Part shown: in pieces, positions 785 to 3,429 of the stretch
How the letters are laid out: each line of letters starts with the position of its first letter
Numbering within the stretch: position 1 is the first letter of the stretch
Source: a virus
Lineage: Duplodnaviria; Heunggongvirae; Uroviricota; Caudoviricetes
Length of the DNA stretch: 4,729 nucleotides
IMG/VR virus record: IMGVR_UViG_2563366944_000006
Direction: 5' to 3' (one strand)
The notes under the pieces: model-generated
Told to the model about the DNA's origin: nothing
The model's input: only the letters and a program-made list of their open reading frames with translations
Databases searched by the model: none
Position numbers and translations under genes: made by a program

Positions 785-2848
785 ATGACAGTAAAAATTT
801 CTGGCGTGCTTAAAGATGGCACAGGAAAACCAGTACAGAACTGCACCATTGTGCTGAAGGCCAGACGAACCAGCAGCACGGTGGTGGTGAACACGGTGGC
901 CTCTGAAAATCCGGATGAAGCCGGGCGTTACAGCATGGATGTTGAGTATGGCCAGTACAGCGTCACCCTGCTGGTTGAAGGTTTTCCGCCTTCACATGCC
1001 GGGACCATTACCGTCTATGAAGGTTCCAGACCAGGTACGCTGAATGATTTTCTCGGTGCCATGACGGAGGATGATGCCCGTCCGGAGGCACTGCGCCGTT
1101 TTGAGCTGATGGTGAATGAAGTGGCACGTCATGCCGGAGCGTCATCACAGAGTGCAGCGGCGGCAAAGAAATCCGAAACGGCAGCAGCCTCATCGAAGAA
1201 TGCAGCGAAAACCTCAGAAACGAATGCAGCTAACAGCGCACAGGCGGCAGCGGCCTCGCAGACTGCATCGGCAAACTCCGCGACAGCAGCCAAAAAATCA
1301 GAAACCAGCGCGAAAAATAGCGAGACAGCCACAAAGGCCAGCGAAAAAAACGCAAAATCCAGCCAGACGGCAGCGAAAACCAGTGAGACGAATGCCAAAG
1401 ACAGTGAAGCCAACGCAAAGGTGAGCGAAACAGCGGCGGCGAACTCGGCGAAAGCATCGGCAGCAAGCCAGACGGCAGCAAAAGCAAGTGAAGATGCTGC
1501 CAGAGAATACGCAAACCAGACAGCAGAGCCGTACAGATATGTTTTACAGCCGCTGCCGGATGTGTGGATACCCTTTAATGATTCGCTGGATATGATTACG
1601 GGCTATTCTCCGGGTTATAAAAAAGTGAAGATTGGTGATAATGTGGTTCAGGTTGCCAGTGATAAACAGGTTAATTTCAGTCGCGCATCAACGGCAACAT
1701 ATATCAACAAATCTGGCGAACTGAAAACGGCGGAAATTAATGAGCCACGATTTGAGTGTGATGGCCTGCTTATTGAGGGGCAAAGAACGAACTTCTTCCC
1801 GAACAGTACAGACCCTTCGAAGTGGAATAAGTCAACTTCACTGGACGTTACAGAAACAGGCACAGATAGTTTCGGGTTTAATTATGGCCGGTTTGTCGTA
1901 CAGGATTCGATTGTTGGTACAAGTAAAGCGCATACCATTATCGGACTGTATTCGAGTACCGGAGGGGTTGATACTTCAGGGGACGAAAAGCATGTAACTA
2001 TATCCTGTCGGGTAAAAAGTGAAGTTGATAATATCGCCGTTCGTATTTTATTTGAACATTATGATGGGGAGGTAAGGACATCAATAGGAGCAGCAAACCT
2101 GAACCTTACCACCCGCATAATTAGCAAGACAGGTCAGACAAGCCGTGTTACAGCAAGGTCTGTTAAGGATGATGCAACTGGCTGGATATTTTTTGAGGCT
2201 ACATTAAAAGCAGATACAACAGAAAATACGGTTGGTGGTTTTGTCCAGTATTCTCCGGATACAGGGCAGATGGTTGCATCAGGGGATTATCTCGATGTAA
2301 CCACTCCACAGATTGAGGCTGGTACAGGCGCATCATCTTTTATTGTTACGGGGACGGCACCGGTAACGCGGGCAAGCGATATGGTTACAGTTCCGATTAA
2401 GAATAATCTTTATAATCTTCCTTTTACGGTTCTTTGTGAGGTACATAAGAACTGGTATAAAACGCCAAATGCAGCACCGCGTGTTTTTGATATCTGCGGT
2501 CATCAGGCCGGTGCGGGGATCGTAATGGGGTTTGGTTCATCAGGTGGGTACGACGGTTTTCCGTATTGTGATATAGGTGGTTCAGACCGACGAATAAATG
2601 AAAATGCCGGGCTGGAAAAAATGCTTATTGGTATGCGGGTAAAGTCCGAACGGTCCACATGTGTAGTCAGTAACGGTAAGTTAAGCAGCGAAACTAAAAC
2701 CAAATGGGAATATATCCGGAGTACAGCAACCATTCGCATTGGTGGACAAACTACAGCAGGATTACGCCATTTATTTGGGCATGTGAGGAATTTTCGTCTC
2801 TGGCATAAAGAGCTAACAGATGCGCAGCTTGGGGAGGTTGTGGAGTGA
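785..2848 (+). CDS. stf: Side tail fibre protein (lambda Stf-like N-terminus and repeat shaft; divergent C-terminal receptor-binding region)
   Basis: 687-aa ORF; GGTGG Shine-Dalgarno at 774-778. N-terminal ~110 aa (MTVKISGVLKDGTGKPVQNCTIVLKARR...GRYSMDVEYGQYSV...FPPSHAGTITVYE...TLNDFL.AMTEDDARPE) matches my recollection of lambda Stf (orf-401) nearly residue for residue. Residues ~120-240 are degenerate SET-N/A-AK repeats typical of the Stf shaft. The C-terminal ~400 aa is unlike lambda Stf; the ending ...NFRLWHKELTDAQLGEVVE resembles the end of concanavalin/LamG-like lectin domains (weak, memory-based). Confidence 0.9.
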   Translation: MTVKISGVLKDGTGKPVQNCTIVLKARRTSSTVVVNTVASENPDEAGRYSMDVEYGQYSVTLLVEGFPPSHAGTITVYEGSRPGTLNDFLGAMTEDDARPEALRRFELMVNEVARHAGASSQSAAAAKKSETAAASSKNAAKTSETNAANSAQAAAASQTASANSATAAKKSETSAKNSETATKASEKNAKSSQTAAKTSETNAKDSEANAKVSETAAANSAKASAASQTAAKASEDAAREYANQTAEPYRYVLQPLPDVWIPFNDSLDMITGYSPGYKKVKIGDNVVQVASDKQVNFSRASTATYINKSGELKTAEINEPRFECDGLLIEGQRTNFFPNSTDPSKWNKSTSLDVTETGTDSFGFNYGRFVVQDSIVGTSKAHTIIGLYSSTGGVDTSGDEKHVTISCRVKSEVDNIAVRILFEHYDGEVRTSIGAANLNLTTRIISKTGQTSRVTARSVKDDATGWIFFEATLKADTTENTVGGFVQYSPDTGQMVASGDYLDVTTPQIEAGTGASSFIVTGTAPVTRASDMVTVPIKNNLYNLPFTVLCEVHKNWYKTPNAAPRVFDICGHQAGAGIVMGFGSSGGYDGFPYCDIGGSDRRINENAGLEKMLIGMRVKSERSTCVVSNGKLSSETKTKWEYIRSTATIRIGGQTTAGLRHLFGHVRNFRLWHKELTDAQLGEVVE

Positions 2849-3123
2849 GAGATTTCACGTTGCGTTTCAGTGATAAAGCAGATTTCAGGGCATTTCTCAG
2901 GAAACTTAACTGGGAAGAGGACGAAGAGCTGCAGAATGCCGTTCTGGTTGATGAGATTGGTTTTACGTTCAGTGAGTCAGGTGTTTCTGCTGACGGGGAG
3001 CCTGAATACACGCGAGACGAAGGGTACTTTGTTAATATTCGTCTTCTTGACGATGGCTTTGATGAATCCGTGTTCCGTGAGTGGGTGGTTACACCAGAGC
3101 GCCCGCTCAGGGAGTGGTTTTAA
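2845..3123 (+). CDS. Hypothetical small acidic protein, translationally coupled to stf (function unknown; candidate fibre chaperone or moron)
   Basis: 92-aa ORF starting at GTG 2845, which overlaps the stf TGA stop (GTGA at 2845-2848). Strong GGGGAGG Shine-Dalgarno at 2831-2837, 7 nt upstream. No internal Met, so GTG is the only plausible start. Strongly acidic composition (EEDEELQ, DGEPEYTRDEGY, DDGFDES). I do not recognise the family. Confidence 0.6.
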   Translation: MRDFTLRFSDKADFRAFLRKLNWEEDEELQNAVLVDEIGFTFSESGVSADGEPEYTRDEGYFVNIRLLDDGFDESVFREWVVTPERPLREWF

Positions 3124-3132
3124 GGGGAGCAG

Positions 3133-3429
3133 ATGGATATCACGCCGATACTTCATGCAATTTGTGCTGTGGCGGTACAGGGGCTGGTTGGGTGCATTAC
3201 CGGTGACTGGGCTTATGGTGCAGCCATTGCCTGTACGTTTTTTGTTGCCCGCGAATATACCCAGGCAGAATATCGCTGGATTAAGCGTTTTGGTGATGGT
3301 CACCGACATAAGATGCCGTGGTGGGGCGGTTTTGATCCGCACGCGTGGGATGTGGCAAGCCTGATGGATTTTGTGGTGCCGGTGGTGGCCTGTGCGGGAT
3401 TGTATGGCTGTATGCTGATTTTTAGCTGA
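3133..3429 (+). CDS. Hypothetical small membrane protein (two predicted hydrophobic segments), last gene of the stf transcription unit
   Basis: 98-aa ORF with ATG at 3133 preceded by AAGGGGAG (3122-3129). Hydrophobic stretches ILHAICAVAVQGLVGCITGDWAYGAAIACTFFVA and LMDFVVPVVACAGLYGCMLIF flank a polar, His/Trp-rich loop (KRFGDGHRHKMPWWGGFDPHAWD). Followed directly by the hairpin at 3436-3455. Family not recognised. Confidence 0.6.
   Translation: MDITPILHAICAVAVQGLVGCITGDWAYGAAIACTFFVAREYTQAEYRWIKRFGDGHRHKMPWWGGFDPHAWDVASLMDFVVPVVACAGLYGCMLIFS

What the first reader, a model, noticed from the sequence alone, without database searches (positions are those of the whole stretch)
2845..3429. Unrecognised two-gene cassette occupies the Tfa position directly after the tail fibre gene
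In lambda and most lambdoid prophages stf is followed by tfa, a roughly 190-aa fibre assembly chaperone. Here two small genes replace it: a 92-aa acidic protein coupled to stf by a GTGA overlap and strong GGGGAGG Shine-Dalgarno, and a 98-aa protein with two hydrophobic segments. Neither resembles Tfa, P2 G or Mu U as I recall them. Their tight coupling suggests they are expressed with the receptor-binding fibre. Plausible roles are a non-canonical chaperone plus a membrane protein acting in superinfection exclusion or receptor masking (as lom, cor and T5 llp do next to tail genes), or a hitch-hiking defence/anti-defence moron. This is the best candidate in the window for an undescribed system.
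Basis: partly seen in the sequence, partly recalled or inferred. Interest (0 to 1): 0.7.

Follow-up and report, generated by a model that had tools for sequence, protein, structure and literature searches.

The report
Fibre partner gene plus stray membrane gene
The two small genes after this prophage tail-fibre gene are real and uncharacterised, but they are not one system: the first is the constant companion of one widespread type of phage tail-fibre tip (probably its assembly helper), and the second is an unrelated small membrane-protein gene that moves on its own between phages and bacterial chromosomes.

Summary
Observation confirmed. ORFs 2845-3123 (92 aa, pI 4.25) and 3133-3429 (98 aa, membrane) exist, are intact in all relatives examined and are under purifying selection. 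Neither matches Tfa, Pfam, NCBIfam, PADLOC or any solved structure. Both fall only in PHROG families of unknown function.

The "two-gene cassette" reading is not supported, because the genes are separable. The 92-aa gene follows, with a conserved stop/start overlap, every fibre gene examined that carries the same conserved C-terminal ConA/galectin-like module. This holds in lambdoid, T1-like, T5-like, Dhillonvirus, Queuovirinae and rV5-like phages (195 versus 205 phage genomes, same taxon breakdown). These phages usually lack the 98-aa gene, and many have a distal fibre gene after the 92-aa gene.

The 98-aa gene also occurs alone: after P22-like tailspikes, after a P2-type tfa, in Aeromonas jumbo phages, and in ordinary chromosomal contexts in sphingomonads.

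Best reading: orf92 is a dedicated, non-Tfa accessory protein (assembly chaperone or cap) of this fibre tip. orf98 is an independent mobile three-helix inner-membrane protein whose role is unresolved; it may be a moron or superinfection-exclusion protein. Both functions are inferred, not shown. Interest is moderate.

The parts
785..2848 (+). Side tail fibre gene (687 aa). N-terminal anchor at aa 1-131, Ala/Ser-rich shaft, hypervariable domain at aa 321-520, conserved C-terminal module at aa 521-687.
   Evidence: PF08400 E 4e-68 for aa 1-131; phrog_1419. NF048003 GTA head-spike-fibre domain at aa 329-530. aa 1-94 matches PDB 9e7m 'Tail fiber protein', and aa 298-545 matches RcGTA head spike fibre 6tb9.
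1745..2344 (+). Hypervariable part of Stf (aa 321-520), the likely receptor-binding domain.
   Evidence: Only 38-60% identity to otherwise near-identical prophage alleles (L010, L039, L043), while the flanks are 80-100% identical.
2345..2848 (+). Conserved C-terminal module of Stf (aa 521-687), ConA/LamG-like. This is the part that co-occurs with orf92.
   Evidence: Sub-threshold Laminin_G_3 match, E 0.005-0.035. It is 60-100% identical across lambdoid, T1-like, T5-like, Dhillonvirus and Queuovirinae fibres. It is found in 205 phage genomes against 195 for orf92, with the same taxon breakdown. The homologous IrisVonRoten Gp22 is described as carrying a C-terminal galectin-like domain (PMC11990801).
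2831..2848 (+). Coupling signals: GGGGAGG Shine-Dalgarno (2831-2837) and the GTGA start/stop overlap (2845-2848).
   Evidence: Sequence read. An ATGA, GTGA or TAATG overlap is conserved in all 9 diverse loci compared.
2845..3123 (+). orf92: 92-aa acidic alpha/beta protein, phrog_1361. Proposed dedicated accessory protein (assembly chaperone or cap) of the fibre's C-terminal module.
3124..3132 (+). 9-nt spacer with the GGGGAG ribosome-binding site of orf98.
   Evidence: In 2G7b the same-length spacer instead precedes a distal fibre gene.
3133..3429 (+). orf98: 98-aa membrane protein of three helices, phrog_1443, with an invariant loop motif AREhTQAEYRWI...G.GkR.NMPWWGGFD. It is an independent mobile gene.
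   Evidence: phrog_1443 E 4e-44. Alignment A4 gives the invariant residues. AF2 pLDDT 92.9. dN/dS 0.16-0.24. Occurs without orf92 in other phage types and in chromosomes.
3436..3455 (-). GC-rich hairpin with a T-run on the minus strand. It is the terminator of the convergent ykgJ gene, and on the plus strand a hairpin without a U-tract at the end of the fibre operon.

Best explanation
The locus is a juxtaposition of two independent genes, not a two-gene system.

(1) orf92 (2845-3123) is the dedicated partner of the conserved ConA/galectin-like C-terminal module of this class of side or lateral tail fibre.
- It is made in step with the fibre through stop/start translational coupling.
- It most likely acts on the fibre's distal end as an assembly chaperone or transient cap. 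That would make it the functional counterpart of Tfa for a fibre that has neither a Tfa nor a C-terminal intramolecular chaperone.
- Shown: the association, the coupling, the purifying selection, the confident alpha/beta fold and the non-homology to Tfa.
- Inferred: the chaperone or cap activity and physical binding to the fibre.

(2) orf98 (3133-3429) is a separately mobile small inner-membrane protein with three helices. Its invariant, positively charged loop is predicted to face the cytoplasm.
- In E. coli temperate phages it rides at the very end of the late (tail) operon, at the border of the accessory-gene region.
- Its most likely role there is a moron-type envelope function that benefits the lysogen or the infected cell, for example exclusion of superinfecting phage at the inner membrane. 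This is a low-confidence inference.
- Shown: its independence from orf92 and from any one receptor-binding protein type.
For: orf92 and the fibre tip:
- tblastn finds orf92 in 195 phage genomes and the Stf C-terminal 167 aa in 205, with the same breakdown by organism name.
- In every locus inspected the small gene directly follows the homologous fibre gene with overlapping stop and start codons. These loci are lambdoid ev243, Lambda_2E9 and 2G7b; Queuovirinae VogelGryff; T5-like IrisVonRoten and mar004NP2; rV5-like FFH2; T1-like JLBYU38 and SLUR29; and Dhillonvirus Ioannina.
- All 46 viral contigs fetched with orf92 carry stfC-orf92 intact.
- orf92 is kept where no distal fibre gene follows. 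That covers 67 window-type and 30 Lambda_2E9-type loci, only about 60% identical to each other, and also FFH2. Its role is therefore tied to the first fibre protein.
- Stf has no S74 intramolecular chaperone domain, whereas the distal fibres of relatives do.
- A tfa 3' stub lies downstream of the module in three relatives, so the module replaced stf-tfa.
- The AF2 model is confident (pLDDT 90.4) and dN/dS is 0.24-0.42.

orf98 independence:
- It stands alone after the P22-like tailspike in Gally, preceded by a terminator, an AT-rich spacer with a promoter-like site, and its own SD.
- It follows OafA plus a fibre-gene remnant in 611R6.
- It follows tfa in phiHAP-1 and sits next to the terminase in Aeromonas phage PS1.
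- Relatives occur in 70 species-representative genomes, including chromosomal contexts next to ligA in sphingomonads.
- It is absent from the virulent phages that carry the fibre-orf92 module.
- The invariant loop is documented. K+R averages 5.6 in the loop against about 0 in the other extramembrane parts.
Against: Against the orf92 reading:
- No direct evidence that orf92 binds or folds the fibre. No multimer prediction could be run.
- Pairwise distances of orf92 do not track those of Stf aa 521-687 particularly well (Pearson 0.49, 12 pairs).
- orf92 sequence types segregate perfectly with presence or absence of the distal fibre gene. This could mean co-adaptation with that protein rather than with Stf.
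- Virion mass spectrometry of mar004NP2 detected the fibre but not the orf92 homologue. That fits a non-structural chaperone, but the same data also missed the distal fibre, so it is weak.

Against the orf98 reading:
- No promoter-like site lies upstream of orf98 in the window.
- In 2G7b and 611R6 only a terminator hairpin separates it from the fibre gene, so expression from the prophage is unproven.
- Chromosomal homologues in Alphaproteobacteria suggest a general cellular activity rather than a phage-exclusion function.
- One distant viral contig places it near a holin and an endolysin.
Confidence: 0.55

Rival explanations
1. orf92 is a structural virion protein: a small adaptor or hinge at the end of the proximal fibre that docks an interchangeable distal fibre. 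The distal fibre is the third gene in many relatives, with a conserved N-terminus 'TVIPxDIxxLKN' and a C-terminal S74 chaperone domain. On this reading the copy in the window is a leftover, or a cap, on a fibre that has lost its distal part.
For: In the T5-like, T1-like, Queuovirinae and 2G7b-type lambdoid loci (and, frameshifted or N-terminally truncated, in Dhillonvirus Ioannina), orf92 lies exactly between the proximal fibre gene and a distal fibre gene whose N-terminus is conserved. 37 of the 80 closest E. coli prophage loci have this three-gene order. orf92 sequence type segregates perfectly with presence or absence of the distal gene. Humolli et al. model IrisVonRoten Gp24 as attached to the proximal fibre Gp22 and do not account for Gp23. 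Stop/start coupling fits a stoichiometric subunit.
Against: orf92 is retained intact and under purifying selection in two diverged lineages (97 loci) and in rV5-like FFH2, all without a distal fibre gene. T-shaped distal fibres of Gordonclarkvirinae attach to their proximal fibre without any orf92 homologue in the phage hit list. It was not detected in mar004NP2 virions, though that proteome was shallow.
Confidence: 0.25
2. orf92 and orf98 act together as one system. Examples would be a chaperone plus membrane partner, or a defence, anti-defence or toxin-antitoxin-like pair hitch-hiking behind the fibre gene.
For: They are adjacent (9-nt spacer) in the window and in 43 of the 80 closest loci. 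The pair is adjacent in 364 of 5426 complete E. coli genomes. In lambdoid phages the tfa stub lies beyond orf98, so both genes lie inside the exchanged module.
Against: Each gene occurs widely without the other. In 37 of 80 loci a fibre gene separates them, and a terminator hairpin follows that gene in the two such loci read. Alleles of the two genes are shuffled independently among prophages. Neither has a PADLOC hit.
Confidence: 0.04
3. orf98 is a late-expressed lysis or envelope accessory protein (holin-, antiholin- or lysis-timing-like), or a tiny membrane enzyme acting on a conserved envelope component, rather than a lysogen-protecting moron.
For: In the window and in 2G7b-type loci there is no room or signal for its own promoter, so it should be transcribed with the late operon. 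A distant homologue lies two genes upstream of a holin and near an endolysin-like gene. It has the size and three helices of class I holins. Its invariant polar residues at the membrane interface, and its chromosomal homologues next to housekeeping genes, suggest a conserved biochemical activity.
Against: Lambdoid phages have a complete S-R-Rz cassette elsewhere (established knowledge, not tested here). Holins rarely show such an invariant Trp-rich loop and usually carry a charged C-terminal tail, which is absent here. In Gally the gene sits behind a terminator with its own promoter-like region, as morons do. PHROGs does not cluster it with any lysis family.
Confidence: 0.2

Closest known systems
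Tail fibre assembly proteins of the Tfa family (lambda Tfa, Mu U/U', P2 G, T4 gp38)
   Same: orf92 is encoded immediately downstream of the fibre gene, is co-expressed with it, and is specific for the fibre's C-terminal module. It moves horizontally together with that module, and in relatives it occupies the place of a displaced tfa.
Cognate fibre-plus-chaperone modules shared between unrelated phages (Alteromonas phages V22 and A5; PMC10579305)
   Same: A fibre tip and a small downstream partner gene are exchanged as a unit among morphologically different phage families. A 'transient cap' role was proposed there.
   Different: A different protein family. The Alteromonas chaperones resemble intramolecular chaperone domains, and orf92 does not. 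The hosts and the fibres also differ.
Two-part or branched lateral fibres of T5-like phages (IrisVonRoten Gp22 and Gp24, PMC11990801; DT57C LtfA and LtfB, PMC4728585 and PMC10713586)
   Same: The window's Stf is homologous to the proximal fibre Gp22 (54% identity over aa 127-686). Relatives carry a distal fibre with an S74 chaperone domain after orf92.
   Different: The window lacks the distal fibre. The published models do not include the 92-aa Gp23. DT57C has no small gene between ltfA and ltfB.
Phage morons and superinfection-exclusion membrane proteins (HK97 gp15, T4 Imm, P22 SieA; lom, cor and llp as neighbours of tail genes)
   Same: orf98 is a small inner-membrane protein encoded at the edge of the tail operon of temperate phages, in the same places where conversion and moron genes sit. 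These places are after the P22-type tailspike, after the P2-type tfa, and at the start of the lambda b-region.
   Different: No homology to any of them; phrog_1443 is 'unknown function' and there is no PADLOC hit. No own promoter is detected in the window. Homologues also sit in non-phage chromosomal contexts. No phenotype is known.

Membership tests
Tfa-type tail fibre assembly proteins (Pfam Caudo_TAP; lambda Tfa, Mu U, P2 G) | Sequence or profile homology to the Tfa family | tested here: not met
   No Pfam, NCBIfam or PHROG 'tail fiber assembly' hit for orf92 or orf98. hhalign against lambda Tfa gives probability 0.1%.
Tfa-type tail fibre assembly proteins (Pfam Caudo_TAP; lambda Tfa, Mu U, P2 G) | Gene immediately downstream of, and co-expressed with, the fibre gene whose C-terminus it serves | tested here: met
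   A stop/start overlap is conserved in 9 diverse loci. Co-occurrence with the Stf C-terminal module is near one-to-one.
Tfa-type tail fibre assembly proteins (Pfam Caudo_TAP; lambda Tfa, Mu U, P2 G) | Binds the fibre C-terminus and is required for its trimerisation or folding | not testable with these tools
   Needs co-expression and pull-down, or multimer structure prediction. The structure-prediction quota allowed only the two monomers.
PHROG 1361 (unknown function) | Full-length match to the family profile | tested here: met
   orf92: E 2.5e-39, residues 1-92 on profile positions 1-92 of 92.
PHROG 1443 (unknown function) | Full-length match to the family profile | tested here: met
   orf98: E 4e-44, residues 1-91 on profile positions 1-91 of 97.
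Fibres with a C-terminal intramolecular chaperone (Peptidase_S74) | S74 domain at the C-terminus of the fibre protein | tested here: not met
   No S74 hit in the window's Stf. S74 is present in the distal fibres of 2G7b and IrisVonRoten (E 7e-14 and 3e-12).
Moron (autonomous transcription unit inside a late operon) | Own promoter upstream and terminator downstream; expressed from the prophage | tested here: inconclusive
   Window: no promoter-like site before orf98, and the downstream hairpin is oriented for the opposite strand. Gally: a terminator, an AT-rich spacer with a promoter-like site and an SD precede orf98. No expression data are available.
Known superinfection-exclusion or anti-phage defence proteins | Homology to a described Sie or defence family | tested here: not met
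Two-gene operonic system (orf92 + orf98) | The two genes co-occur and are co-inherited across genomes | tested here: not met
   Each is found widely without the other. They are separated by a fibre gene in 37 of 80 loci, and in the two such loci read a terminator hairpin follows that gene.

The most novel reading that the evidence does not exclude
orf92 defines a new, widespread family of fibre-tip partner proteins, unrelated to Tfa and to intramolecular chaperones. On this reading it stays on the virion as the docking hub that lets ConA-tipped proximal fibres accept interchangeable distal fibres. That would be a plug-and-play host-range joint shared by lambdoid, T1-, T5-, rV5-like and other coliphages. 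In parallel, orf98 would be the founding member of a new family of very small three-helix membrane proteins with a conserved interfacial active site, which phages borrow from bacterial chromosomes to remodel or guard the inner membrane.
Probability: 0.2. Interest if true: 0.65.

Novelty: new variant of a known kind. Interest (0 to 1): 0.42.

Why it matters
This fibre class is very common. DNA of the orf92-orf98 stretch, mostly its orf98 part, matches 1870 of 5426 complete E. coli genomes, and the fibre tip is found in about 200 sequenced phages from six lineages. Some of these are model and therapeutic-candidate phages, such as members of the BASEL collection.

Host-range engineering by swapping fibre tips fails when a required partner is left behind. 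If orf92 is the obligatory chaperone or joint of this tip, it must be moved with it. The published structural models of these fibres, which omit it, would then be incomplete.

orf98 is one of the more frequent 'hypothetical proteins' of E. coli prophages. It belongs to a family with no Pfam entry that spans the Alpha-, Beta- and Gammaproteobacteria and Desulfovibrio. A function for it would annotate thousands of genes. Neither point overturns current concepts.

Tried and rejected
1. Pfam, NCBIfam and PADLOC scans of both proteins found nothing significant.

2. PDB sequence searches with profiles found nothing.

3. Fold searches were uninformative.
- orf92 against BFVD: only uncharacterised phage proteins.
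- The afdb50 library was unavailable.

4. The exhaustive representative search hit giant PKD- or ConA-repeat proteins with apparently good whole-protein E-values. Per-domain scores were only 3-13 bits, summed over repeats, so I rejected these as homology or as a Rosetta-stone link.

5. A mirror-tree test of orf92 against Stf sub-regions was not discriminating (12 pairs).

6. The literature gave no function for either protein.
- The two BASEL papers describe the homologous fibres but not the small gene.
- The DT57C papers concern a different two-protein fibre.
- rV5 gp41 has a different C-terminus.
- The Hf4s seroconversion paper is unrelated.
- The mar004NP2 proteomics is too shallow to decide whether orf92 is structural.

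7. Searching for a conserved neighbour of orf98 across 64 species loci gave heterogeneous contexts only.

8. Rfam and tandem-repeat scans of the window found nothing relevant.

9. A tfa remnant in the window itself is absent.
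Full report
**What the window is.** The 4729-bp window is the right end of the tail region of an E. coli lambdoid prophage inserted near the trp operon. It is 99.5% identical to E. coli AF3, and the same locus is present in CE10 and ABU 83972. The gene order is:
- lom, 34-633
- a 687-aa side tail fibre gene, 785-2848
- orf92, 2845-3123
- orf98, 3133-3429
- a convergent ykgJ-type gene, 3548-3880 on the minus strand
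- a VapA/VapB-family gene, 4066-4518

**Observation check.**
- Both small ORFs are present as described, with the GTGA overlap and the GGGGAGG site.
- They are not chance ORFs. RefSeq calls them as CDSs.
- They are intact and colinear in all 46 viral contigs retrieved with orf92.
- Pairwise dN/dS is 0.24-0.42 for orf92 and 0.16-0.24 for orf98.
- AlphaFold2 gives confident models, with pLDDT 90.4 and 92.9.
- Neither matches Pfam, NCBIfam or PADLOC, any PDB sequence or lambda Tfa (hhalign probability 0.1%).
- Their only database homes are PHROG 1361 and PHROG 1443, both of unknown function.

**The fibre.**
- Stf has the PF08400 N-terminal anchor. Its aa 1-94 match the fibre stub resolved in PDB 9e7m.
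- After an Ala/Ser-rich shaft comes a domain related to the RcGTA head-spike fibre.
- The C-terminal part gives a sub-threshold ConA/LamG match.
- Comparing alleles shows that aa 321-520 are hypervariable. They are 38-60% identical in proteins that are otherwise about 100% identical.
- By contrast, aa 521-687 are conserved, including across distant phages.
- The protein is homologous to the 'proximal fibre' Gp22 of the T5-like phage IrisVonRoten (54% over aa 127-686). Humolli et al. describe a C-terminal galectin-like domain for Gp22 (PMC11990801).
- Stf has no S74 intramolecular chaperone domain.

**orf92 is the partner of the fibre tip.**
- tblastn finds orf92 in 195 phage genomes and the Stf C-terminal 167 aa in 205, with the same organism breakdown.
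- In every inspected locus orf92 directly follows the homologous fibre gene. These are lambdoid Nesevirus and Jouyvirus phages, Queuovirinae VogelGryff, T5-like IrisVonRoten and mar004NP2, rV5-like FFH2, T1-like JLBYU38 and SLUR29, and Dhillonvirus Ioannina. In the nine loci whose junction was read, the stop and start codons overlap as ATGA, GTGA or TAATG.
- The family is a roughly 90-aa protein with a conserved pattern: M-[KR]-D-x-x-L-[KR]-F ... D-x-I-G ... G-[YW]-[FHY]-V-N-x-R ... P-x-R-x-W.
- It has no Pfam domain in any member.
- Its predicted alpha/beta fold has no informative structural neighbour.

**The optional third gene.**
- In most virulent carriers, and in 37 of the 80 closest E. 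coli prophage loci, a third gene follows orf92. It encodes a distal fibre with a conserved N-terminus (TVIPxDIxxLKN) and a C-terminal S74 self-chaperone.
- The window belongs to the other 43 loci, where orf98 starts at the position of that gene after the same 9-nt spacer.
- orf92 is kept without a distal fibre in two lineages that are only about 60% identical to each other (67 and 30 loci) and in FFH2.
- Its function is therefore tied to the first fibre protein. This is why I rank 'dedicated assembly chaperone or cap of the ConA-like tip' above 'adaptor for the distal fibre'.
- The adaptor idea is not excluded. orf92 types segregate perfectly with presence of the distal gene.
- The only virion proteome available detected the fibre but neither orf92 nor the distal fibre, so it is too shallow to decide.

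**orf98 is independent of orf92 and of the fibre type.** It occurs in several other settings:
- Alone after the tailspike of the P22-like phage Gally. There it is preceded by an intrinsic terminator, a 190-bp AT-rich spacer with a promoter-like site, and its own SD, which is a moron-like layout.
- After an O-acetylase and a 53-codon remnant of a 2G7b-type distal fibre gene in the P22-like phage 611R6.
- After the tail fibre assembly gene of the Halomonas phage phiHAP-1.
- Next to the terminase gene in Aeromonas jumbo phage PS1.
- Near a holin in one metagenomic viral contig.

Other points on orf98:
- The phages that share the fibre-orf92 module but are virulent lack it.
- Relatives exist in 70 species-representative genomes, including Leclercia, Pantoea, Aeromonas, Comamonas, sphingomonads and Desulfovibrio.
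- Their neighbours are heterogeneous. In sphingomonads they are ordinary chromosomal genes such as ligA and prmA.
- The family has an invariant motif, AREhTQAEYRWI..G.GkR.NMPWWGGFD, lying between hydrophobic helices.
- Nearly all K and R residues lie in that loop, so the positive-inside rule places it in the cytoplasm.
- The three-helix fold gives only generic matches.

**Module history.** In ev243, 2G7b and Lambda_2E9 the last roughly 39 codons of a lambda-type tfa lie about 20 bp downstream of orf98. The block from the stf shaft through orf98 therefore replaced an ancestral stf-tfa by recombination. Within the block, alleles of the Stf variable domain, orf92 and orf98 are shuffled among prophages.

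**Verdict.** They are not a cassette.
- orf92 is best explained as a new, non-Tfa family of fibre-tip accessory protein. The association is shown; the activity is inferred.
- orf98 is a separately mobile small membrane protein of unknown role. A moron or exclusion function is plausible but weakly supported, and a late or lysis function or a general envelope function are live alternatives.

Prevalence is high. DNA of the orf92-orf98 stretch, in most cases its orf98 part only, matches 1870 of 5426 complete E. coli genomes, and the adjacent pair is present in 364. I rate the finding as a new variant of a known kind (fibre plus cognate accessory gene) with moderate interest.

Noticed in passing
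window 4066-4518 (+): A 150-aa protein matches the Rhodococcus equi virulence-associated protein family (PF05526, E 5e-34; RefSeq calls it 'VapA/VapB family'). It sits in the cargo region at the end of an E. coli prophage. This is an unusual host for the family.
   Followed up: no
window 3548-3880 (-): A YkgJ-type CxxCxxCC zinc/iron-chelating protein (PF03692, E 6e-12) is convergent with the fibre operon. The hairpin at 3436-3455 with a minus-strand T-run is its terminator.
   Followed up: partly
window 1745-2344 (Stf aa 321-520): This is a sharply bounded hypervariable cassette inside the fibre gene. It is 38-60% identical between alleles whose flanks are 80-100% identical, and is presumably the receptor-binding domain exchanged by recombination.
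   Followed up: partly
L001 6846-6962; L063 5314-5430; L002 6314-6373: Stubs of the 3' end of a lambda-type tfa gene (Tfa aa 156-194, 80-90% identity) lie about 20 bp downstream of orf98 in ev243, 2G7b and Lambda_2E9. ev243 and 2G7b hold a second tfa fragment further downstream. The window has none.
   Followed up: yes
L063 4956-4994 and L068 about 3953-3990: The hairpin GGGGTCGAGCGCCCC followed by TTTTATT lies between the distal fibre gene (or its remnant) and orf98. No room is left for a promoter, so orf98 there should be reached only by read-through (antiterminated) transcription.
   Followed up: partly
L066 about 4268-4310 (Dhillonvirus Ioannina): The conserved N-terminal motif of the distal fibre (MVTKTNIPADIRR*) is cut by a stop, and the annotated gene restarts downstream at MDKSANLSDL. 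This is a frameshift, a sequencing error or a split gene.
   Followed up: no
L208, L213, L214, L216 (sphingomonad genomes), about 4001-4300: orf98-family genes lie immediately downstream of NAD-dependent DNA ligase (ligA) in a chromosomal, non-prophage context. The family therefore has cellular members.
   Followed up: partly
window about 4660-4729: Most related genomes match only up to position 4659. In the closest genome an IS1A element starts at about window position 4675, so the window's right end is an IS1 junction.
   Followed up: no
window 737-766 (+): A strong terminator-like hairpin (13 bp stem plus T-run) lies between lom and stf, inside the late operon. This is consistent with lom being a moron and with the fibre genes depending on antiterminated transcription.
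   Followed up: no
phage records MG065654, MG065635, MG065692 and others labelled 'Campylobacter phage', and 2-3 labelled 'Listeria': These records carry the coliphage-type fibre tip and orf92 at 33-78% identity, with genome sizes typical of rV5-like and T5-like coliphages. The host labels look wrong, or the samples were mixed.
   Followed up: no
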